Shown: positions 37,600 to 51,785 of the stretch, in pieces
How the letters are laid out: each line of letters starts with the position of its first letter
Position numbering within the stretch: position 1 is the first letter of the stretch
NCBI GenBank assembly: GCA_964470065.1
Contig: CAYYAR010000004.1
Location: forward strand, 26,329 to 90,328
DNA: 64,000 nt
Reading direction: 5' to 3'
Source of the DNA: an uncultured Verrucomicrobiota bacterium
Lineage (GTDB): Bacteria > Verrucomicrobiota > Kiritimatiellia > CAIVKH01
The notes under the pieces: generated by a model
Database searches by the model: none
What the model was told of the DNA's origin: nothing
The model's input: the letters and a program-made list of their open reading frames with translations, nothing else
Position numbers and translations under genes: made by a program

Positions 37600-38250
37600 T
37601 CCCGCAAATCGCTGACCTGCTGGAGTCGCTTTGAAATCGCCTTGGGCGACATGTCAACCGCTGACATTTGGCTCACCACTCAATTTTTCTACATAGTCAC
37701 GATCCAAGCCAGATCCTTGGCGCGTCCGGTGACACGTTTGTTTTTGGTGTAAGCGGTTTTCTCGATGAAGTGAACGGGAACATCCCCATAGTGCCCGTTT
37801 TCCTTGCCGGCCACCGCCACCTCCCGGGTTATTCCGGTAAGCGAGGTAATAATGTATTAACGAACCGGAGGCACGCCCAACTGAACAACCTGCTCCGGCG
37901 TTTGAAAATCACCCGCGGTCAGGCCCAGCGACCCAAAGCCAAAATCGTTCAGCGCCTGAAGCACGTGCGCGGCGTTTTCCGGGGTTGCGCGCACCAGCAG
38001 GTAGATGTCACCGGTAAAACGGGGCGCGCCGTGAAAGGCGAGGGCGTAGACGCCCATGACCAGATACTCAACCTCGCGAGCGTTATACAACGCGAGCACT
38101 ACTTTGAAGTCGGGCTGTGTTTCAATGAAATTGACGCCTTAAACGTTCAACCGCGTCGAGTCGTTGGGCCGGCGATTGTGCAAGCCAAAACGCGAGACTC
38201 ACGCGCACATCACCCTCGGAGCACAAGGGCACTCGTTTGATCACCGGCTC
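37600..38250 (-). pseudogene. Decayed type II TA module (MntA-like nucleotidyltransferase plus HepT/HEPN-like remnants)
   Basis: Minus-strand frames broken by stops. ...AQRLDAVERLRRQFH* then ...LAFHGAPRFTGDIYLLVRATPENAAHVLQALNDF (minimal-nucleotidyltransferase-like GS/ARG...DIDLLV pattern) then ...KENGHYGDVPVHFIEKT (HEPN R/KxxxxHxY-like). Lower GC than the surrounding DNA. Confidence 0.35.
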
Positions 38251-38513
38251 TATCACGCACGCAGCTTATCCGGCTAAAACAATCAGGAAAGGCGCAAAAC
38301 CCGGAAAGAATGGCCGCCGCGAATCGGCTGATCTCTCCTGACTTCAACAATGGGATTCCCCGACGTACATGTATTCGGGAATCAGCTTGCGGAGAATCCG
38401 GGTGTTGATTTTTTCCTCATCTATCCGCCACCTGCGGCGGAAAAAATTTAAACTGTTCTCCCTCAACATCTTGTGCAACAGATAAAAAATATCAAAAAAT
38501 CCTGAACTACGTA

Positions 38514-38542
38514 TTGACACGTAGAGGCGCTAAGGGTTATCA
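38514..38542 (+). promoter_or_regulatory. Candidate sigma-70-like promoter (TTGACA-N17-TTATCA) upstream of the island's first gene
   Basis: A -35 hexamer TTGACA with 17-bp spacing to TTATCA, ~90 bp upstream of the start at 38632, in an AT-rich region. Confidence 0.3.
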
Positions 38543-38631
38543 ATTACAAGCATGCGAGCACGTAAAGTCTTTGCATAATTTCATGGACGAAACGAAACGA
38601 ACAGTATTAAATGCGTAACGTTGGAGAAAAA

Positions 38632-39315
38632 ATGAAAAAAATAACCGCTACACTATTGGGCACGCTGATTGCAAGTTCAGCCGCGCTCGCTCAGACCAAC
38701 CAGGTTTTGAGCCGAAATGCCGTGGGGTATGTGAAAATCAATGTGCCAGCCAGCAACAGCTTGGCTCTTGTCAGCAATCCGTTTGTAGCGTTGGACGAAG
38801 GAAGTGCTCGTATAACAAACGTATTTGCAAGTTTGGTGAACAACAGCACAGTTTCTGTATGGAACGAAGCCAGTCAAAGTTACCTTAATTACGCGAAAAA
38901 CAGTCGCGGTGGTTGGGTTGGTACAGGCGTTACAACTGTGCAGTTTGCCAGAGCTGACGCAGCATTCATCAGGTCTGCAGGAACTTCAACAGTGTTCTTC
39001 ATGGGCGAAGTCCCTGATTCAACTACTGCACCCACGACCACTCAATCGAGAGCTGCCGGGATCACAATGCTTGGAAATCCCTATCCGGTTGAGGTAGCAG
39101 TCACAAATTCATCAATCGGGTTGAGTCTGCCCGCCGGTGGTACAATTAGTATTTGGAATAGCGTTAGTAATAAATACGACAACTTTGCCAAAAACTCCCG
39201 CGGTGCTTGGGTCGGTACGATCACGGCGACAATAAAACCTGGAGACGGACTTGTTATTCGTGCAACCAATGCTACTGCGAACTTTTCAACGACAAAACCC
39301 TACAATTGGCCATAG
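38632..39315 (+). CDS. Secreted protein with two tandem ~95-aa repeats (unknown family)
   Basis: GGAG Shine-Dalgarno 6 nt upstream; signal peptide MKKITATLLGTLIASSAALA. Internal duplication (SNPFVALDEG...SVWNEASQSYLNYAKNSRGGWVGTGVTT versus GNPYPVEVAV...SIWNSVSNKYDNFAKNSRGAWVGTITAT). Lower GC. Confidence 0.65.
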   Translation: MKKITATLLGTLIASSAALAQTNQVLSRNAVGYVKINVPASNSLALVSNPFVALDEGSARITNVFASLVNNSTVSVWNEASQSYLNYAKNSRGGWVGTGVTTVQFARADAAFIRSAGTSTVFFMGEVPDSTTAPTTTQSRAAGITMLGNPYPVEVAVTNSSIGLSLPAGGTISIWNSVSNKYDNFAKNSRGAWVGTITATIKPGDGLVIRATNATANFSTTKPYNWP

Positions 39316-39333
39316 AATCATGGAGGAAAAAAT

Positions 39334-39942
39334 ATGAAAAAAACATCACTAATCATTGCGCTTCTTACAACTCTGTCGTTAAACGCCCAAGCTGGAATCA
39401 ATGTTCTGGTTTCTGGTCTTACGGGATTTTATCGTTCTGATGACACCACGGGTTTGTTGCAAGCGCCCGGCGGCCTTAATGGCTGGATACAATTTATTTA
39501 CTCCACAACAGGAGTAGTTGCCGGACCTGCTGGAATCGGAGGCACTGTAGACGGGAGCGAGTCCATTCTCGATCAGTTTGGTCTAACAAACGCCGGTAAC
39601 TCAGACGATTACGGAACTTTTGTTTACGGTTTAGTTGCTCCGCAGACAACCGGTTTTTGGTACGCTCGGTTATTCGAAGGCGGAAGTTCCACTACCGGAG
39701 CATCAGCCGATAATATCACCGCAGGTACATGGTACTATGAAAGCGCTGTTTATGCTGTGATTAACAACACAGACCCCGCTTCACCAGACGCCCAGTCAAT
39801 TCAAGGAAATAATCCTACCATTCTTCAAACTGCATTCGGTGGCGACTTCGTGAACTACCAAGTCGTTCCTGAGCCTTCCGTCCTTGCCTTCTTAGGCCTT
39901 GGAGGTTTGGCTTTGGCGGCTCGCCGTCGCTTCATCGCTTAA
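39334..39942 (+). CDS. PEP-CTERM sorting-signal secreted protein
   Basis: Signal peptide MKKTSLIIALLTTLSLNAQA; the C-terminus VVPEPSVLAFLGLGGLALAARRRFIA has the VPEP motif, a hydrophobic stretch and basic residues (exosortase signal). Lower GC. Confidence 0.8.
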   Translation: MKKTSLIIALLTTLSLNAQAGINVLVSGLTGFYRSDDTTGLLQAPGGLNGWIQFIYSTTGVVAGPAGIGGTVDGSESILDQFGLTNAGNSDDYGTFVYGLVAPQTTGFWYARLFEGGSSTTGASADNITAGTWYYESAVYAVINNTDPASPDAQSIQGNNPTILQTAFGGDFVNYQVVPEPSVLAFLGLGGLALAARRRFIA

Positions 39943-39970
39943 TCAGCGATTTTGTTTATGGCCATTTGAA

Positions 39971-39998
39971 AGCGCCCTCTCCGGAGGGCGCTTTTTTG
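39971..39998 (+). terminator. Rho-independent terminator after the PEP-CTERM gene
   Basis: AGCGCCCTC-TCCG-GAGGGCGCT followed by TTTTTT. Confidence 0.7.
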
Positions 39999-40035
39999 TT
40001 TTCCAACCGCGTCTCCCGCATTAACCTCATCGACT

Positions 40036-42984
40036 ATGTTTTGGATATCCATCGTCTTCTTTTTATCCGGCCTCTCCGCGCTGGTGTACCAACTGCTCTG
40101 GATGCGCCACCTCGGATTCATCTTTGGCAATACCATCTATGCCAGCGCGACCGTGTTAACCGCGTTCATGGGTGGCTTGGCGATTGGTTCGCATCTATTT
40201 GGTCGTTGGGCGGAGCGGCTTAAGGATCCGCTGAAAGCATTTGCCATTCTCGAGTGGGTCGTGGCCGCTTATGCCGTTCTGCTTCCGTTCCTCTTTTATG
40301 GCCTACAGCTTGTCTACCGGATGGCCTATCAATCGATTTCCCAGGAACTGATTTTTCTTACGCCACTACGTTTCATTCTTGCTGTCATCATTCTTTTGAT
40401 TCCGACCATCGCGATGGGTGGCACCTTGCCGGTATTGATTCGCGGGCTGGCGCATGACGAACCGAACTTTGGTTCGCGTCTCGGCTGGCTTTACGGCGTG
40501 AATACACTGGGCGCGGTGGCCGGTGTTTTCCTGAGCGGATTTTACCTTATCCCGGCGATCGGGCTGACCAACACCAATCTGCTCGCCGCCGCGACGGATT
40601 TAATTGCCGGCATTGGCGCGTGGCTCATCGCTTCGCGGCACCGCGTGCCTCATACCGATTATCAGGAACCCAAGCGTGCCTCGTACCCGTGGCGAAGCAT
40701 GACGTTCAACTCGCGCTATGCGGTCGTGGTGGCGACGTTTTGCGGATTCATCTCGCTGGCGCTCGAAGTTATCTGGTTCCGCGCGCTGATCCTCGTTTTC
40801 GGTTCCACCACATATTCTTTCACGGTGATGTTGGGCGTGTTCCTGCTCGGCATCGCGCTGGGTTCACTGTTGATCGCTCCTTTTCTTGACCGGATGAAAT
40901 TGCTGGTTCCCGCGCTCGCCGCGACACTCGTTCTCATCGGTGGTTACACGCTCTGGTCGATGTATCGCTTTGATGGCGGACCGGAATTTTTGTTGAATTA
41001 TCTAAATCAGCGCTCGTTCACGTGGTCGGCCATGAATCAGGCGCGGTTTATAATCGCGGTTTCTCATCTGGCCGTTCCCGCGTTGCTTTTCGGAATTAGC
41101 TTCACCATCGCAACTCGCATCGTGCGTCGCGATGAATCAAGCTCATCTGCTGCGGTCGGCATGGTTTACGCGCTCAATACCATCGGTGCGGTTGCGGGTT
41201 CATTCGCAGGCGGATTCCTCATGCTGCCGAATCTCGGGATGGAGGGCTCTCTGCTTGTTATTGCCGGTGCGGCATCGTTATCCGGCTTTGTTTCGCTGAT
41301 CCTTTGGGGTGGTGCCATCCCGATGCGTCTGGCCGCCGGCGCTGGTACCCTAGCATTAGCTTTGTATGTTATCTTTTTTCCACCGGTTTGGAACAAGACG
41401 GTGCTTTCCGCGGGCGCTTTCTTCGGGGCGTTTAACTTTGTTTCCGAAGGCAAAATCATTTTCCGCGAAAAGGTTCTTGCTGATCGTTTGCTTCATTACC
41501 GGGAGTCGATAGCCTCGACCGTTTCCGTGCACATCAGTGAGGATGAGCAGAAGTATTTTTGCGTGGATGGAAAAACCGAAGCCGACCAAGGCACCCGCGG
41601 CATGGTTGTTCAACGGATGATCGGTCACCTGCCGATGTTGTTTCATCCGAACGCAAAGAAAGCCATGAATCTTGGACTTGGTGCCGGAGTGAGCTTTGGC
41701 GCCTTGGGGTGCCATCCTCTCGATCATCTCGAAGTCGTCGAAATTGAGCCCGCAGTATCGATAGCCGCCAAGGTTTGGGGAGATTTGAATCACAACATTC
41801 TCGATAATCCCAAGGCAATAGTCACCGTGAATGACGGACGCAATCATCTTTTTTGCACCACAAATTACTACGATGTCATTACGTCCGACCCGTTTGAGCC
41901 AGTTGTCGGAGGGGCTGGCCATCTTTTCACCGTGAACCATTTCAAGAATGCCAAACAGCGCCTGAACGATGGCGGCATCATGTGCCAGTGGATCCCGATG
42001 TATGAGATGACCTCCGAGGATTATCTGACGATTGTGCGGTCGTTTGTGTCGGTATTTCCTCAGACGACACTTTTCTATACGGGTTTTGACACGCTGCTTC
42101 TCGGGTTCAAAGATGAGATGCGGCTGGACCCGGAAGTTTTGCGGCGTAATTTTGAGATACCGGCCGTGAAAGCCTCGCTGGCGGATGTAGGATTTACGTC
42201 GCCCGAAATGATTTTGGGGATGTTCGTAGCGGACTTGAGCAAAATGCCGGAGTTTACCGGTTCTGGACCGGTGAACACCGATGACAAACCGATTATTGAG
42301 TTTTCCACACCCAAGAGCCAGCTACGTTACACGACCGACGAAAATCAGGCCGCGCTGCTAGCTCATTTCACGCCGATTCCTGATGTTTGGCTTGATGGCC
42401 TCGACGACGCCACGTCTCAGCAATTAAAGCAGGAGCATGAGGCGGTTCGTCTTATGCTGGAATCGGGAGTTTTGCGGGCGAGGGGAGACACTGAGAAAGC
42501 CTTTATGCAGCTCGCGAAGGCGAATGAGATTTCACCGGCCAATCCGGTAGTTAAAAATGAGATGGTGGCGATGCTGACGGTTTCGGCTCAGACGTTGCGC
42601 AAGAGCGGGGAGCGGGATGAGGCGGCGCGACAATTCCAGACGGCGTTGCAGTTGGATCCGGGTGATTTTTGGTCGCTGTATTATCTGGTCGAACTGGGAA
42701 TGCAGGCGGGGCAGGTGGAGTTTGCCGGGAAGATGCTGGAGGAGGCGGTGGCGCGTTATCCGGAGTCGCCGCTGGTAAAGGGGTTGAAGGCGAAATATTT
42801 GTTCACGCAGGGCGATCAGGCCAGTGCGTTTGAGTTCTTCAAGCAGGCCGTGATTGAACAGCCCGGAAGCCGGATGTTGTGGAATGATTTCATGCGGGTG
42901 GCAATGGCGGCGGGTGACCAAGTCCTCACCGCGTATGCGCAACAGAATCTCGACCGGTTGAATGCGTATATCGAGGGGAAATAA
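40036..42984 (+). CDS. Fused polytopic membrane (MFS-like) / spermidine-synthase-like / TPR protein
   Basis: 982 aa. ~13 TM N-terminal domain (MFWISIVFFLSGLSALVYQLLWMRHLGF...). The central domain resembles aminopropyltransferases, retaining the DVITSDPFEPVVGGAGHLFT block (compare E. coli SpeE DSTDPIGPGESLFT), but the Gly-rich dcSAM motif is changed to NLGLGAGVSFGALG. C-terminal TPR-like helical repeats. Confidence 0.85.
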   Translation: MFWISIVFFLSGLSALVYQLLWMRHLGFIFGNTIYASATVLTAFMGGLAIGSHLFGRWAERLKDPLKAFAILEWVVAAYAVLLPFLFYGLQLVYRMAYQSISQELIFLTPLRFILAVIILLIPTIAMGGTLPVLIRGLAHDEPNFGSRLGWLYGVNTLGAVAGVFLSGFYLIPAIGLTNTNLLAAATDLIAGIGAWLIASRHRVPHTDYQEPKRASYPWRSMTFNSRYAVVVATFCGFISLALEVIWFRALILVFGSTTYSFTVMLGVFLLGIALGSLLIAPFLDRMKLLVPALAATLVLIGGYTLWSMYRFDGGPEFLLNYLNQRSFTWSAMNQARFIIAVSHLAVPALLFGISFTIATRIVRRDESSSSAAVGMVYALNTIGAVAGSFAGGFLMLPNLGMEGSLLVIAGAASLSGFVSLILWGGAIPMRLAAGAGTLALALYVIFFPPVWNKTVLSAGAFFGAFNFVSEGKIIFREKVLADRLLHYRESIASTVSVHISEDEQKYFCVDGKTEADQGTRGMVVQRMIGHLPMLFHPNAKKAMNLGLGAGVSFGALGCHPLDHLEVVEIEPAVSIAAKVWGDLNHNILDNPKAIVTVNDGRNHLFCTTNYYDVITSDPFEPVVGGAGHLFTVNHFKNAKQRLNDGGIMCQWIPMYEMTSEDYLTIVRSFVSVFPQTTLFYTGFDTLLLGFKDEMRLDPEVLRRNFEIPAVKASLADVGFTSPEMILGMFVADLSKMPEFTGSGPVNTDDKPIIEFSTPKSQLRYTTDENQAALLAHFTPIPDVWLDGLDDATSQQLKQEHEAVRLMLESGVLRARGDTEKAFMQLAKANEISPANPVVKNEMVAMLTVSAQTLRKSGERDEAARQFQTALQLDPGDFWSLYYLVELGMQAGQVEFAGKMLEEAVARYPESPLVKGLKAKYLFTQGDQASAFEFFKQAVIEQPGSRMLWNDFMRVAMAAGDQVLTAYAQQNLDRLNAYIEGK

Positions 42985-45613: not shown

Positions 45614-47383
45614 TCAGCGCTGCGGCCAACGCGGGCGGTCGGTGAGAAATATCTGATCGCGGCCGCTGATACGCAGCGCTTCGGTGAGCGGAAAGTCCGC
45701 CGGAATCATCTCGCGGAAGATGGGGTACCACGAGCTGTAAGGGCCGGTCATTAAACTGCTGACATAAGGCAAGTCGCGGGTAAGCGTGGTGAAGTAAAGG
45801 CCGCCGATCCGCTTTTGCATGTCGTTGATGCGGTAAAATTCCTCGATGGTGTTGGGGATGAGCAGGGAGCTGCGATCGCCATACCACGCGGTTGCCCAGG
45901 GCATATCGGTTCCCAGCAGTTCATCTGCGGTCATCATGTTGCAGACCATCGATACATAGGTCGGGTAGTAAGGCGGGTAGGGGTATCCGCTGCGGGGGGG
46001 CATCAGCTTCAAGATTAACGGCACCGCGGTAAGCAAGATCAGCAATCCGATCAGACCTGTTCGCAACACCGGAATGGCAATCTGCATGCGGTCGAGCAAC
46101 AGATAGAAAAAGGCGAGCCCGTACAAAATGATGAAGGGACGAAAGATCGCCATGGCCCGGAGGCTTGAGTTGTCAAACAGGCACGCGACAAGAAACAGGC
46201 CGATCATCGCGGCAAGCATGGCAAAGCGCAGAACATGCACCTGATTGCGGGCGAACCGGAAGAAGAACATCGCGATGAACAAGGCGGCGAGGATACCGTT
46301 GTTCGAGGACGAAAGCACCGTGTCGTAATGGCGGGCGATGTTACTCGTCCACTTTGTTTTGAGGGCATCGCCGGCGCCGGAGGGGAGGGGATTGCCGGTT
46401 CGTTCGAACGAATGGGTGATGGCCGGGCTGTCGATGTTGTGCACCAGTTGCGGCGTGAGGCCGAACGGTTTGCCGCAGACCTGGATATTGCGAATGATCC
46501 ATGGCGATACAAACAGCGCGGTTAACGCGAGAAATGCGAGGGCAATTTTCCATCCGCGTTGCGGAATCAAAAAGGTGATCAGCAAACCGCACGCCACCAG
46601 CATCCATCCGGCGGAGTAACGGGTCAGAAAGGCAAGTGCGCAGGCCAGGCTGGCGAGCGTGAAGGGCAGAATCCATCGCCAAGTCACGGCGCCGTCAGAG
46701 GTCCGCTCGATGGCGACAAGGGTGAGATAAACGGCCAGGGTGGTAAGGAGCGTGGCCAGCGAAACACTGAGGCCGGATATACCGTCCGCCCAAACCTGAT
46801 CGGAAACAAAAAACAGGGTGGTGGCGATAAGGGCCAGGCGCGGCTCGAAAAAGCGGCGACCAATCAAAAAGATCAGCAGCCCGGTCAGGATGGTCGCTAC
46901 ATTGCCCACCGGCACAATCGCCCATTGTTCGGGGGGATAAGCCCGAACCTTCTGGCCGGCGTCAAATGATCCGCCCACCCACAGATATGCCTTCGACAAG
47001 ATCCACGGATAAACCGGCGGATGCACGATATCCGGTTGTTGGAGCATGATGCCCGGGGATTCCAGGCCGTGCTGATCAAATACGCGCAACGCGGCCGGGC
47101 GAATAACCTTGGTCGAGAACGATCCATCGGTCATCAATTGGCGGGCAATTTGCGCCTGGTCCATCGCCTCGGCTTCCTTTAGCCCCCAGAACTCGGACAG
47201 CCAGTACAGCGACATCAGAGTGATGACGAAAAACACGTACAGGGCGAGTTTGATGAACTGGCTGCCGACGCCCTCGTCCACATTGTAAATCAGATCCTGA
47301 ACGCGGGACTCGAAGCTCTTGTGGACATTGACTGTCTCTGACTTCACGAGACGGACTTTATACGGCGGCGATGAGGTCGGCAA
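45614..47383 (-). CDS. GT-C fold membrane glycosyltransferase (ArnT/PMT-like, GT39/83-type)
   Basis: 589 aa, ~12 TM. The first periplasmic loop carries a DE motif (YNVDEGVG). Long loops and overall architecture of polyprenol-P-sugar-dependent GT-C enzymes. Confidence 0.65.
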   Translation of the reverse strand: MPTSSPPYKVRLVKSETVNVHKSFESRVQDLIYNVDEGVGSQFIKLALYVFFVITLMSLYWLSEFWGLKEAEAMDQAQIARQLMTDGSFSTKVIRPAALRVFDQHGLESPGIMLQQPDIVHPPVYPWILSKAYLWVGGSFDAGQKVRAYPPEQWAIVPVGNVATILTGLLIFLIGRRFFEPRLALIATTLFFVSDQVWADGISGLSVSLATLLTTLAVYLTLVAIERTSDGAVTWRWILPFTLASLACALAFLTRYSAGWMLVACGLLITFLIPQRGWKIALAFLALTALFVSPWIIRNIQVCGKPFGLTPQLVHNIDSPAITHSFERTGNPLPSGAGDALKTKWTSNIARHYDTVLSSSNNGILAALFIAMFFFRFARNQVHVLRFAMLAAMIGLFLVACLFDNSSLRAMAIFRPFIILYGLAFFYLLLDRMQIAIPVLRTGLIGLLILLTAVPLILKLMPPRSGYPYPPYYPTYVSMVCNMMTADELLGTDMPWATAWYGDRSSLLIPNTIEEFYRINDMQKRIGGLYFTTLTRDLPYVSSLMTGPYSSWYPIFREMIPADFPLTEALRISGRDQIFLTDRPRWPQR

Positions 47384-51026: not shown

Positions 51027-51785
51027 GTGATCGCGATGACGGCGAGTCGCGGGGCGATGGCGGGCAGTGTCGTGGCGTTTATGGGGCTGTTGTTGTCGCG
51101 AAAAGGAATCCGTTCCGGGGGATGGGCTGCGGGTCTTGAGATGCTGATGTTTATTGGAACGCTCGTAATGGCGAATCCAACCACCCGCGGGCGACTGCAC
51201 GAGATCGTCGTGCTCGGCGCAGAGGCTCCGGCAATTGCCTCGCGCTTGTGGCTGCAGAAGGTTGCCTGTTCCATGTGGACTGAGCGCCCATGGACGGGTT
51301 GGGGGCCAGGTGCGTATGCCATTCAATACACGGAGCGGCTGGGCGATGTTTTGCCGGAAGAAAAAAACCATGCGATTCTGAAGAGCCTTGTGCATGCGCG
51401 TGAGCCGCATCATGACTTGCTGCAGTTCGGGGCCGAGTTTGGTCTCATTGGTGCTGCGTTGGCGGCGGATTTGCTGGCGCGCAGGATGGAATTGTGGCCG
51501 GAAAAAGATGCAGCGGCGCTTGGCCGGCTGGCCACGCTTTATCACCGGGCTGGGGAGTACGAAAAAGTTCTCTGGGCGGTCTACCGGTTGCGCCCGCGGA
51601 TGGATGTATATGTCGAAGAGCTCTATCCGGAAACCATGAATCTGGCCGGTGCGACGTTGATTCAACTCGGCCGGCCGGACGAAGCCGTCGTGTGGCTGGA
51701 GCGAGCGCTGGTCAAAAATCCTCAGCTCTTAAGTGCGCAGAAGAATTTGGAAAATTTACGTGGTGCGAGGGGCGAAGGTCCTTAA
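51027..51785 (+). pseudogene. O-antigen ligase (Wzy_C/WaaL)-like C-terminal fragment with a TPR tail; N-terminal TM region absent
   Basis: Contains the ligase periplasmic-loop motif (ERPWTGWGPGAY...HAREPHHDLLQFGAEFGLIGAALAA) but only 2 of the ~10 N-terminal TM helices. The ORF begins right after an in-frame stop. TPR-like C-terminus. Confidence 0.5.

What the first reader, a model, noticed from the sequence alone, without database searches (positions are those of the whole stretch)
40036..42984. The SpeE-like domain keeps the substrate-binding block but alters the Gly-rich cofactor motif
The central domain aligns by eye with spermidine synthase around DVITSDPFEPVVGGAGHLFT (SpeE: DSTDPIGPxESLFT, which contains the catalytic Asp region). 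Where SpeE has GGGDGG, this protein has NLGLGAGVSFGALG. The domain is also fused to a large polytopic membrane domain and a TPR tail. This suggests a membrane-embedded enzyme, with possibly altered cofactor specificity or a non-catalytic role. It is not a canonical cytosolic polyamine synthase.
Basis: partly seen in the sequence, partly recalled or inferred. Interest (0 to 1): 0.6.

Follow-up and report, generated by a model that had tools for sequence, protein, structure and literature searches.

The report
Membrane transporter fused to methyltransferase-like enzyme
This gene encodes a 13-helix transporter-fold membrane protein whose spermidine-synthase-like domain probably faces outside the cytoplasm and has lost the residue needed to make polyamines, so it most likely methylates secreted proteins; it belongs to a very large, named bacterial family whose function has never been tested.

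Summary

This holds across the family. In 146 diverse relatives the Asp position is never acidic, while E569 and D600 are essentially invariant. That argues for a working cofactor site with changed specificity, not a dead domain.

The membrane part is a true 12-helix major facilitator (MFS) fold, with a 13th helix. Charge bias and MFS convention place the SpeE-like and TPR domains in the periplasm.

The protein passes NCBIfam NF037959, "fused MFS/spermidine synthase". The closest characterised analogue is fungal NHMT, a 7-helix membrane protein with a SpeE-like domain lacking the same Asp. NHMT methylates secreted proteins.

Orthologues in Kiritimatiellia sit near a conserved pair of secreted and PEP-CTERM protein genes, and often near GT-C/TPR glycosyltransferase genes.

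Best reading (confidence about 0.45): a periplasm-facing, SAM-dependent N-methyltransferase for envelope proteins. The MFS domain may supply SAM. All of this is computational.

The parts
40036..42984 (+). Whole gene: 982-aa fused MFS / SpeE-like / TPR protein. It passes NCBIfam NF037959.
   Evidence: ORF. NF037959 scores 109.2 bits against a cut-off of 40. Homologues of about 980 aa cover 100% of the length.
40036..40635 (+). MFS N-terminal half, TM1-TM6 (aa 1-200). The cytoplasmic TM2-TM3 loop carries a motif-A-like G56-R-x-x-E-R61.
40705..41307 (+). MFS C-terminal half, TM7-TM12 (aa 224-424). It is an internal duplicate of TM1-TM6.
   Evidence: BLASTP of aa 6-192 against aa 230-416: 28% identity, ungapped, E 6e-21. 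Conserved W-x-R...G and Y-x-x-N-T-x-G-A-x-x-G motifs occur in both halves.
41317..41385 (+). TM13 (aa 428-450). This extra helix carries the chain from the cytoplasmic C-terminus of the MFS fold to the other side of the membrane.
   Evidence: AF2 helix 428-447. Hydropathy 1.74. K+R averages about 20.3 in the predicted inside loops and about 6.6 in the outside loops over 48 homologues.
41461..42135 (+). SpeE-like (PABS/Rossmann) domain, aa 476-700, including the N-terminal beta-hairpin subdomain.
41668..41688 (+). Motif I, N545-L-G-L-G-A550-G551. Ala550 replaces the dcSAM-binding Asp of GGGDGG.
   Evidence: Alignment to 1inl. Ala in 48/48 close homologues. Ser/Ala/Thr/Gly/Cys/Val and never Asp/Glu in 146 diverse relatives.
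41740..41742 (+). Glu569, the post-I acidic residue that binds the cofactor ribose. It is equivalent to E121 of T. maritima SpeE, E524 of METTL13 and E340 of NHMT.
   Evidence: Glu in 144/146. Mutational importance in METTL13 and NHMT.
41833..41838 (+). Asp600-Gly601, the 'DG' motif that hydrogen-bonds the adenine N6.
   Evidence: Asp in 146/146. The motif is described for SpdS and METTL13 in PMC6109062.
41887..41901 (+). Post-II motif D618-P-F-E621-P, the catalytic and acceptor-amine site, equivalent to SpeE D170-S-T-D173-P. The loop 621-626 that follows corresponds to SpeE's flexible gatekeeping loop.
   Evidence: Alignment. D618 and E621 in 48/48 close homologues. In the wider family: Glu/Asp/Gln at 618 and Asn/Glu/His at 621. 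This loop is the only stretch with pLDDT below 50.
42136..42405 (+). C-terminal subdomain and linker (aa 701-790), with the conserved N-T-D-D-x-P-x-x-E755-F motif.
   Evidence: E755 is invariant in 100 diverse relatives; D749, P752 and P759 are conserved.
42406..42972 (+). TPR tail, about 10 helices (aa 791-979).
   Evidence: Pfam TPR_19, TPR_14 and TPR_16. AF2 helices. A periodic G-x4-A-x6-A-x4-P consensus appears in the family alignment.
38611..39315 (+). Upstream secreted protein ('SEC', 234 aa as ORF; 227 aa from M8). It is a candidate substrate or partner. Its family is lineage-restricted and unannotated.
   Evidence: No Pfam or NCBIfam hit. 272 homologues, all named hypothetical. Found within 10 kb of the fused gene in 23 of the 43 loci compared.
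39334..39942 (+). Upstream PEP-CTERM protein (202 aa), paired with SEC.
   Evidence: PF07589 E 9e-6. TIGR02595 scores 19.2 bits against a cut-off of 16. The family occurs in 20 loci.
39968..39995 (+). Terminator-like hairpin (12-bp stem followed by a T-run) between the PEP-CTERM gene and the fused gene.

Best explanation
The gene encodes a single-chain, envelope-facing alkyl-transfer enzyme, most likely a methyltransferase.

Shown by sequence and predicted structure:
- A 12-helix MFS-fold domain built from two duplicated 6-helix halves.
- A 13th transmembrane helix.
- A spermidine-synthase-fold domain, then a TPR tail.

Inferred:
- The MFS termini are cytoplasmic, so TM13 places the SpeE-like and TPR domains in the periplasm.
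- The SpeE-like domain keeps every residue that holds the adenosine part of the cofactor, and it keeps the catalytic acid. It has lost the Asp that pairs with the amine of decarboxylated SAM and repels the carboxylate of SAM. It therefore most likely binds SAM and transfers a methyl group to an amine nitrogen.
- The acceptor is most likely a secreted protein, such as an N-terminal residue or a lysine, recruited by the TPR tail.
- In this lineage the likely clients are the products of the conserved neighbouring gene pair (SEC and a PEP-CTERM protein).
- The fused MFS domain is proposed to bring SAM from the cytoplasm to the outward-facing active site.
For: Fold and family:
- NF037959 scores 109 bits against a cut-off of 40.

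Cofactor site:
- D101 is replaced by Ala550.
- Across 146 diverse relatives the position is never acidic, while E569 (144/146), D600 (146/146), G547 and G551 are kept.
- D103I in plant SPDS abolishes aminopropyl transfer and yields methyltransferase activity. T. maritima D101I lowers kcat about 2000-fold (PMC3725402).

Fungal NHMT precedent:
- NHMT has 7 TM helices and a SpeE-like domain with Ile at the Asp position.
- It methylates His1 of secreted proteins after signal-peptide cleavage, and it is inactive without its membrane domain (PMC10349129).
- Its rebuilt sequence passes NF037959 (61.5 bits against 40), while speE models give only 24-35 bits.
- It matches this family's profile at 39 bits and hhalign 94% probability.

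Topology:
- 13 helices.
- K+R averages 20.3 inside and 6.6 outside over 48 homologues.
- MFS fold with 350-365 aligned residues.
- Motif-A-like loops between TM2-TM3 and TM8-TM9.

Genomic context:
- The SEC and PEP-CTERM gene pair lies within 10 kb in about 22 loci, in varied order and strand.
- GT-C (TMEM260-like or PMT_2) genes with TPR tails are adjacent in about 12 loci.
- Autotransporter genes occur in 7 loci.
Against: - No biochemical data exist for any bacterial member (literature searches).
- To my knowledge SAM is not known to be available in the periplasm, so this reading needs an unproven export step.
- I could not inspect model coordinates to see whether the cofactor pocket faces the MFS cavity.
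- The soluble domain alone scores higher against true speE models (78 bits) than against NF037959 (35 bits, below cut-off). It is therefore not specifically NHMT-like, and NF037959 membership is carried by the membrane domain.
- NHMT's 7-TM domain shows no detectable sequence similarity to this membrane domain.
- Q526 and D618, which are 2 of the 3 residues that hold the dcSAM amine in SpdS, are retained. Aminopropyl or 3-amino-3-carboxypropyl transfer is therefore not excluded.
- The SEC/PEP-CTERM link is limited to Kiritimatiellia-type orthologues. It is absent in the closest relative with full flanks (L007) and in distant members.
- The mature N-terminal residue of SEC is not strictly conserved.
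Confidence: 0.45

Rival explanations
1. The architecture and location are the same, but the acceptor is not a protein. The MFS domain flips or presents an amine-bearing lipid or glycan, such as a phosphatidylethanolamine-type head group, an aminosugar or a lipid-linked intermediate. The SpeE-like domain then N-alkylates it at the outer face.
Against: The TPR tail and the conserved secreted-protein neighbours point to protein clients. The only characterised relatives with the Asp loss (NHMT, METTL13-C) act on proteins. PMT, however, acts on putrescine.
Confidence: 0.2
2. It still transfers the propyl chain rather than a methyl group. That would be aminopropyl from dcSAM bound in an altered way, or 3-amino-3-carboxypropyl from SAM, now tolerated because the repelling Asp is gone. 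The product would be a polyamine-like or acp modification on an envelope component.
For: The soluble domain is closer to true speE models (78 bits) than to NF037959. It keeps the SpeE N-terminal beta-hairpin subdomain, Q526, D618 and E621. Simply tolerating the SAM carboxylate is the smallest chemical step away from SpeE (inference).
Against: Loss of this Asp abolishes aminopropyl transfer in plant SPDS. In T. maritima SpeE it lowers kcat about 2000-fold (PMC3725402). Scores lie far below every aminopropyltransferase equivalog cut-off. No SpeE-fold acp transferase is known to me.
Confidence: 0.15
3. The SpeE-like domain is a non-catalytic ligand-binding or scaffolding module, that is, a pseudoenzyme. 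It sits on an MFS transporter and senses or gates transport, or merely docks TPR-bound partners.
For: The canonical Asp, Tyr76 and Gln46 equivalents are lost. A periplasmic location would deprive the domain of cofactor. H. pylori SpeE is known to serve as a FliM partner (5x0z is listed).
Against: The cofactor-binding and catalytic positions are among the most conserved in a family of more than 9,500 clusters at 50% identity: E569 144/146, D600 146/146, 618 acidic or Gln, P619 and P622. Such conservation is not expected for a scaffold.
Confidence: 0.12
4. The topology prediction is wrong, and the enzyme domain is cytoplasmic. It would be a membrane-tethered SAM-dependent enzyme working on the inner face, with the MFS domain exporting its product.
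For: SAM is available only in the cytoplasm (own knowledge). Topology here is inferred, not measured. Related single-module proteins (PRK03612 type) are annotated as aminopropyltransferases.
Against: Thirteen confident helices. A strong positive-inside bias over 48 homologues. A canonical MFS fold whose termini are cytoplasmic, with motif-A-like loops on the same side. Neighbours are secreted or periplasm-acting proteins.
Confidence: 0.08

Closest known systems
Fungal N-terminal histidine methyltransferase NHMT (Aspergillus nidulans AN4663; PMC10349129)
   Same: - A polytopic N-terminal membrane domain with an odd helix count, followed by a SpeE-fold domain.
- A non-acidic residue at the GxG(D/E)G position: Ile322 in NHMT, Ala550 here.
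- The post-I Glu is kept (E340 and E569), as is the post-II Asp.
- NHMT acts on proteins that have crossed the membrane, and its membrane domain is needed for activity.
- Both proteins pass NCBIfam NF037959.
- The catalytic cores align at 36% identity over 124 columns.
   Different: - NHMT has 7 helices; this protein has 12+1 in a full MFS fold.
- The membrane domains show no detectable sequence similarity.
- NHMT has no TPR tail.
- NHMT is eukaryotic and sits in the ER; this protein sits in a bacterial inner membrane.
- NHMT passes NF037959 through its catalytic part. This protein passes mainly through its membrane part.
- The NHMT substrate, His1 of LPMOs, has no evident counterpart here.
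Canonical spermidine synthase SpeE (for example T. maritima 1inl/1jq3, T. thermophilus 1uir)
   Same: - Same ribose-binding Glu, adenine-binding Asp-Gly and catalytic Asp.
- A flexible gatekeeping loop in the same place.
   Different: - The dcSAM-specific Asp is Ala, Tyr76 is Val and Gln46 is Ser.
- Scores are about 75 bits against cut-offs of about 250-260.
- The domain is fused to an MFS domain and a TPR tail, and is predicted to be extracytoplasmic rather than soluble and cytosolic.
METTL13 C-terminal domain (5WCJ) and plant putrescine N-methyltransferase: SpeE-fold enzymes that switched from dcSAM to SAM
   Same: - Loss of the acidic residue in the Gly-rich loop, as in PMT (Ile).
- The acceptor is an amine nitrogen.
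   Different: - Both are soluble cytosolic enzymes without membrane or TPR domains.
- Sequence relationship to this protein is only at superfamily level.
NCBIfam NF037959 'fused MFS/spermidine synthase' and PRK03612-type membrane SpeE proteins
   Same: - The whole protein passes the NF037959 cut-off (109.2 against 40).
- Residues 227-670 (TM7-13 plus the SpeE-like domain) align to PRK03612 profile positions 20-434.
   Different: - Those models describe one membrane module plus the enzyme domain (about 480-520 positions). This protein has two tandem modules forming a complete MFS fold, plus a TPR tail.
- No member has an experimentally defined function in bacteria in the literature I could search.
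GT-C protein O-mannosyltransferases with TPR tails (TMEM260-like, PMT_2, TMTC-like)
   Same: - Overall logic: a large polytopic membrane domain, an extracytoplasmic catalytic region and a TPR tail.
- Genes of this type lie next to the fused gene in about 12 loci.
   Different: - The fold and chemistry are unrelated: a lipid-linked sugar donor instead of a SAM-type Rossmann site.
- The TPR tails are not specifically similar.

Membership tests
Canonical spermidine synthase / aminopropyltransferase (TIGR00417 speE, PRK00811) | PABS/Rossmann fold with an N-terminal beta-hairpin subdomain | tested here: met
   [not shown]
Canonical spermidine synthase / aminopropyltransferase (TIGR00417 speE, PRK00811) | Acidic residue in the GxG(D/E)G loop that binds the dcSAM amine and excludes SAM | tested here: not met
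   The loop reads G-L-G-A550-G. Ala in 48/48 close homologues. Never Asp or Glu in 146 diverse relatives.
Canonical spermidine synthase / aminopropyltransferase (TIGR00417 speE, PRK00811) | Score above the curated equivalog cut-off | tested here: not met
   TIGR00417: 75 bits for the whole protein and 78 bits for the domain alone, against a cut-off of 249.55. PRK00811: 74 bits against 260. PRK03612: 92 bits against 472.
Canonical spermidine synthase / aminopropyltransferase (TIGR00417 speE, PRK00811) | Catalytic Asp (Tm D170) and second acidic residue (Tm D173) in the post-II loop | tested here: met
   D618 and E621, both 48/48 in close homologues.
Canonical spermidine synthase / aminopropyltransferase (TIGR00417 speE, PRK00811) | Tyr76 and Gln46 (Tm numbering), which support the attacking amine and the cofactor | tested here: not met
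   V525 and S494 by the alignment to 1inl. The family has Thr/Leu/Asn and Ala/Ser/Thr at these positions.
Canonical spermidine synthase / aminopropyltransferase (TIGR00417 speE, PRK00811) | Makes spermidine or another polyamine from dcSAM | not testable with these tools
   Needs an enzyme assay or polyamine profiling of a mutant.
NCBIfam NF037959 fused MFS/spermidine synthase | Whole-protein HMM score at or above the curated cut-off of 40 bits | tested here: met
   109.2 bits over 3 stretches. Caveat: the soluble domain alone scores 35.1 bits, so the membrane domain carries the match.
NCBIfam NF037959 fused MFS/spermidine synthase | MFS-type membrane domain N-terminal to a SpeE-like domain in one chain | tested here: met
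   [not shown]
NHMT-type membrane-anchored SpeE-fold protein methyltransferases | Non-acidic residue at the GxG(D/E)G position, with the post-I Glu retained | tested here: met
   A550 and E569 here; I322 and E340 in NHMT.
NHMT-type membrane-anchored SpeE-fold protein methyltransferases | Odd number of TM helices, placing the catalytic domain on the extracytoplasmic or lumenal side | tested here: inconclusive
   Thirteen helices and a strong positive-inside bias predict this. No experimental topology exists, and I could not inspect coordinates.
NHMT-type membrane-anchored SpeE-fold protein methyltransferases | Homology of the membrane domain to the NHMT 7-TM domain | tested here: not met
   hmmsearch with the family profile and hhalign with A1 align only the catalytic core, NHMT residues 313-449.
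NHMT-type membrane-anchored SpeE-fold protein methyltransferases | SAM-dependent methylation of the N-terminal residue of secreted proteins | not testable with these tools
   Needs mass spectrometry of candidate substrates with and without the gene.
Major facilitator superfamily | 12-TM fold made of two homologous 6-TM halves | tested here: met
   [not shown]
Major facilitator superfamily | Motif A (G-x-x-x-D-R-x-G-R-R type) in the cytoplasmic TM2-TM3 loop | tested here: inconclusive
   A related G-[RK]-x-x-[DE]-R pattern is conserved in the TM2-3 and TM8-9 loops. It is not the textbook motif.
Major facilitator superfamily | Transport activity | not testable with these tools
   Needs proteoliposome or whole-cell transport assays.
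PEP-CTERM/exosortase-associated components (for example PrsT, TIGR02917) | Score above the PrsT equivalog cut-off | tested here: not met
   39.3 bits against 312.2. The similarity is generic to TPR repeats.
PEP-CTERM/exosortase-associated components (for example PrsT, TIGR02917) | Conserved gene neighbourhood with PEP-CTERM proteins | tested here: met
   A PEP-CTERM gene is adjacent in the window, and the family occurs in 20 related loci. I did not look for an exosortase gene.

The most novel reading that the evidence does not exclude
The fused MFS domain exports SAM, or channels it directly into the outward-facing SpeE-fold active site. That would make this very large bacterial family the first example of SAM-dependent methylation carried out in the periplasm. 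In Kiritimatiellia the clients would be a dedicated pair of secreted and PEP-CTERM surface proteins. The single-module 7-TM relatives, and possibly fungal NHMT, would work the same way as dimers that rebuild an MFS-like conduit.
Probability: 0.25. Interest if true: 0.8.

Novelty: new member of a known kind. Interest (0 to 1): 0.55.

Why it matters
Thousands of bacterial genes are labelled 'spermidine synthase' or 'fused MFS/spermidine synthase': at least 9,587 clusters at 50% identity match this protein at E <= 1e-30. This analysis indicates that the labelled chemistry is wrong for the family. The dcSAM-binding Asp is absent throughout, while the rest of the cofactor site is under strong constraint.

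If the enzyme domain is periplasmic and active, cofactor must be supplied across the inner membrane. To my knowledge that has not been described for SAM in bacteria. The fused MFS fold makes the idea directly testable in one polypeptide.

The analysis also gives a bacterial counterpart to fungal NHMT, whose membrane domain was reported as unique to fungi. It further points to a concrete candidate substrate pair for experiments in Kiritimatiellia.

Tried and rejected
- Foldseek against afdb50 was not available. I could not retrieve AlphaFold models of NHMT or of single-module relatives.
- Homology between the NHMT 7-TM domain and this membrane domain was sought by hmmsearch with a 146-sequence profile and by hhalign. 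Only the catalytic cores aligned. I make no claim that the membrane domains are homologous.
- I first took NHMT passing NF037959 as evidence that the two catalytic domains are specific sisters. The control with the soluble domain alone rejected this: speE 78 bits, NF037959 35 bits.
- I tested whether the TPR tail is specifically similar to the TPR tails of adjacent GT-C proteins. There was no hit at E 1e-2.
- A Pfam scan of 100 diverse relatives, meant to census C-terminal domains, exceeded the residue limit. I used only the periodic TPR-like consensus in the alignment.
- Literature searches for bacterial members found no functional study. The terms were fused MFS/spermidine synthase, PEP-CTERM plus spermidine synthase, COG4262, and periplasmic methyltransferase plus SAM transporter.
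- The position three residues after the Asp site (Ser553; Thr in 124/146) matches the V106T change that improves SAM use in PMT. T. maritima SpeE also has Thr there, so I did not use it as evidence.
The geometry between the MFS cavity and the cofactor pocket could not be examined.


Full report
**The observation**

The ORF at 40036-42984 (+) is real.

- Pfam finds a Spermine_synth domain at residues 524-687 (E 7.3e-18), several TPR families at about 810-960, and a weak MFS_1 match over residues 6-310.
- The best solved relatives by sequence are spermidine synthases: T. maritima 1inl at E 1.7e-14, and B. subtilis 1iy9.
- An AlphaFold2 model built on 48 homologues is confident (mean pLDDT 89.9, pTM 0.88).

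The similarity is therefore not a by-eye coincidence.

**Residue mapping**

The HMMER alignment to 1inl reproduces the published T. maritima numbering. It gives these equivalences:

| T. maritima SpeE | This protein |
|---|---|
| G98-G-G-D101-G-G103 | G547-L-G-A550-G-V552 |
| Y76-H77-E78 | V525-Q526-R527 |
| Q46 | S494 |
| E121 (ribose) | E569 |
| N152-G153 (Asp-Gly in human SpdS and METTL13; adenine N6) | D600-G601 |
| D170-S-T-D173-P | D618-P-F-E621-P |

The only low-confidence stretch of the model is 621-626. That is where SpeE has its mobile gatekeeping loop.

The one qualification is that the Tyr76 equivalent is also lost.

**The feature is family-wide**

- The word-indexed search returned 2,012 relatives. 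All of the top 120 are about 980 aa with the same architecture, and those that carry a source name are from Kiritimatiellia or Lentisphaerae.
- The exhaustive search of 50%-identity representatives found 30,699 hits at E <= 1e-3 and 9,587 at E <= 1e-30. The top 150 are mostly 800-1,200 aa and match over most of the query length.

In an alignment of 146 of these diverse representatives:

| Position | Residues observed |
|---|---|
| 550 (SpeE Asp) | Ser 84, Ala 44, Thr 7, Gly 5, Cys 3, Val 1; never Asp or Glu |
| E569 | Glu 144, Asp 2 |
| D600 | Asp 146 |
| G547, G551 | 142 and 144 Gly |
| 618 | Glu 67, Asp 52, Gln 18 |
| P619, P622 | 137 and 133 Pro |

In the 48 close homologues, A550, D618 and E621 are invariant.

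A site kept like this across thousands of lineages argues against a dead domain. Only the residue that discriminates dcSAM from SAM is consistently replaced, which points to a working cofactor pocket with a different specificity.

**What the Asp loss means (from the literature)**

- In plant spermidine synthase, D103I abolishes aminopropyl transfer and creates a low putrescine N-methyltransferase activity. Further changes in the pocket raise that activity. The same paper cites a roughly 2000-fold loss of kcat for T. maritima D101I (PMC3725402).
- Fungal NHMT (A. nidulans AN4663) is the most relevant case (PMC10349129).
  - It has seven TM helices followed by a SpeE-like domain in which Ile322 replaces the Asp.
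  - It resides in the ER.
  - It methylates His1 of secreted LPMOs, and only after signal-peptide cleavage.
  - It is inactive without its membrane domain.

**Direct comparison with NHMT**

I rebuilt the NHMT protein from the DNA printed in the paper's supplement.

- Thirteen of the OCR'd 10-nt blocks had one base too many or too few and were repaired.
- The product is 558 aa, as published.
- One repair was corrected by hand so that the sequence reads GLGIG, as the paper states.

The rebuilt protein gave these results:

- It scores 61.5 bits on NCBIfam NF037959, above the cut-off of 40. It scores only 24-35 bits on true speE models.
- It matches a profile of this family at 39 bits. It aligns to the close-homologue alignment with 94% hhalign probability and 36% identity over 124 columns.

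Two cautions apply.

- The membrane domains do not align at all.
- The soluble domain of the window protein on its own scores higher on speE models (78 bits) than on NF037959 (35 bits).

The window protein therefore enters NF037959 mainly through its membrane domain. Its catalytic domain is not a specific sister of NHMT's. NHMT is a close functional analogue and a superfamily relative. It is not a demonstrated orthologue.

**The membrane domain**

- Hydropathy and the model agree on 13 helices.
- Residues 6-192 and 230-416 are 28% identical without gaps (E 6e-21). The first twelve helices are therefore a tandem duplication of a 6-helix module.
- No solved chain covers both the MFS and the SpeE parts.
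- Both halves carry strongly conserved polar motifs within the bilayer: W-x-R...G, M-G-x-T-L-P, Y-x-x-N-T-x-G-A-x-x-G, E73 and E244.
- Both halves have a G-[RK]-x-x-[DE]-R pattern in the TM2-3 and TM8-9 loops. This resembles MFS motif A.

The domain is too conserved to be a mere anchor.

**Topology (inferred)**

- Over 48 homologues, the loops on the side of the N-terminus carry about 20.3 Lys+Arg on average. The opposite loops carry about 6.6.
- MFS proteins have cytoplasmic N- and C-termini, and their motif-A loops are cytoplasmic (established knowledge).
- TM13 should therefore deliver the SpeE-like and TPR domains to the periplasm.
- Residues 227-670 (TM7-13 plus the enzyme domain) align to the single-module PRK03612 model. 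The 6+1 arrangement is therefore the ancestral unit.

**Genomic context**

In the window, two genes lie immediately upstream of the fused gene.

- The first encodes a 234-aa secreted protein with no family match ('SEC', 38611-39315).
- The second encodes a 202-aa PEP-CTERM protein (39334-39942).
- A strong terminator-like hairpin at 39968-39995 lies between the pair and the fused gene. The pair may be a separate, strongly expressed unit.

Among 41 related genome loci plus three looked up by identity:

- The SEC family is the most frequent neighbour (23 of the 43 loci compared), and the PEP-CTERM family is second (20 loci). All other neighbour families occur in 10 loci or fewer.
- The pair occurs upstream, downstream or on the opposite strand. 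It has therefore survived rearrangement.
- Among orthologues at 43% identity or more with at least 5 kb of flank on both sides, 13 have the pair and 2 do not. This is my count.
- More distant members at 29-37% identity lack the pair.
- The next most frequent neighbours are GT-C glycosyltransferases (TMEM260-like or PMT_2) with TPR tails. They occur in about 12 loci, including an Acidobacteriota member. Autotransporters occur in 7 loci.
- The window itself has a weak PMT_2-like gene at 45614-47383.

Every recurrent neighbour is a secreted protein or an enzyme that acts on the outer face of the inner membrane. This fits a periplasmic role and protein clients.

**Most likely mechanism**

- Shown: fold, motifs, family-wide conservation, helix count and gene neighbourhood.
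- Inferred, step 1: the enzyme domain is periplasmic.
- Inferred, step 2: it binds SAM rather than dcSAM.
- Inferred, step 3: it methylates an amine nitrogen. D618 and E621 would position and deprotonate the acceptor, as D170 and D173 do in SpeE.
- Inferred, step 4: the TPR tail recruits protein substrates. In this lineage these are probably the SEC and PEP-CTERM proteins.
- Inferred, step 5: the MFS domain supplies SAM across the membrane.

Step 5 is the weakest. It follows only from the need for cofactor on the outside and from the fusion itself. The NHMT authors raise the same supply problem for the ER.

**Rivals**

- A lipid or glycan acceptor presented by the MFS domain.
- Retained propyl-chain transfer, either aminopropyl or 3-amino-3-carboxypropyl. 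This is not excluded, because Q526 and D618 are kept and the domain is closer to true SpeE than to NHMT.
- A non-catalytic binding module. This is disfavoured by the conservation pattern.
- A wrong topology.

**Novelty**

- The protein is an ordinary member of a named and very large family (NF037959), so it is not a new kind of object.
- The loss of the Asp has already been interpreted for the fungal enzyme.
- In the library I could search, I found no functional study of any bacterial member. I also found no statement linking the bacterial family to NHMT, and none saying that the membrane part is a full MFS fold that places the enzyme outside the cytoplasm.
- I therefore rate it a new member of a known kind. 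Interest is moderate to good because of the cofactor-supply question.

Noticed in passing
[not shown]
   Followed up: partly
window 39968-39995 (+): A strong intrinsic-terminator-like hairpin (12-bp stem, 7 G-C pairs, then TTTTTTGTTTT) lies between the PEP-CTERM gene and the fused gene, 41 nt before its start codon. The layout resembles a highly expressed structural gene followed by read-through into a modifying or assembly gene.
   Followed up: no
window 38001-40000: G+C falls to 0.485 over the SEC/PEP-CTERM genes, against about 0.58-0.62 in the flanking regions. It stays lower (0.54-0.55) across the fused gene.
   Followed up: no
window 40051-40611 vs 40723-41283 (aa 6-192 vs 230-416): The two halves of the MFS domain are unusually similar for an MFS protein: 28% identity, ungapped, E 6e-21. 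The second half plus TM13 and the enzyme domain aligns to single-module models (PRK03612). This suggests a fairly recent tandem duplication of a 6-TM module. It also raises the possibility that single-module relatives dimerise into an MFS-like bundle.
   Followed up: partly
NHMT (A. nidulans AN4663), sequence rebuilt from the supplement of PMC10349129: The characterised fungal N-terminal histidine methyltransferase passes the bacterial NCBIfam model NF037959, 'fused MFS/spermidine synthase' (61.5 bits against a cut-off of 40). The paper described its membrane domain as confined to Pezizomycotina.
   Followed up: yes
window 45614-47383 (-) and 51027-51785 (+): Two further envelope-modification genes lie nearby. 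One is a 589-aa polytopic protein with a weak PMT_2 (GT-C) match. The other is a 252-aa ORF with an O-antigen-ligase (Wzy_C) domain plus TPR repeats, and it looks truncated.
   Followed up: no
L026, L027, L029, L030, L042, L004 (downstream of the SEC/PEP-CTERM pair): In the Pontiella-like loci the order is fused gene, SEC, PEP-CTERM, and then an autotransporter of about 1,000-1,200 aa (Autotransporter beta-domain, E 2.5e-25). The autotransporter family occurs in 7 loci in all, so the cluster may include a further surface protein.
   Followed up: partly
window 42136-42405 (aa 701-790): The motif N-T-D-D-x-P-x-(I/L)-E-F lies just after the Rossmann core. It includes E755, which is invariant in 100 diverse relatives, and T. 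thermophilus SpeE has a faint counterpart (T-D-Q-N-P). Its role is unknown, and it may contribute to the active site.
   Followed up: no
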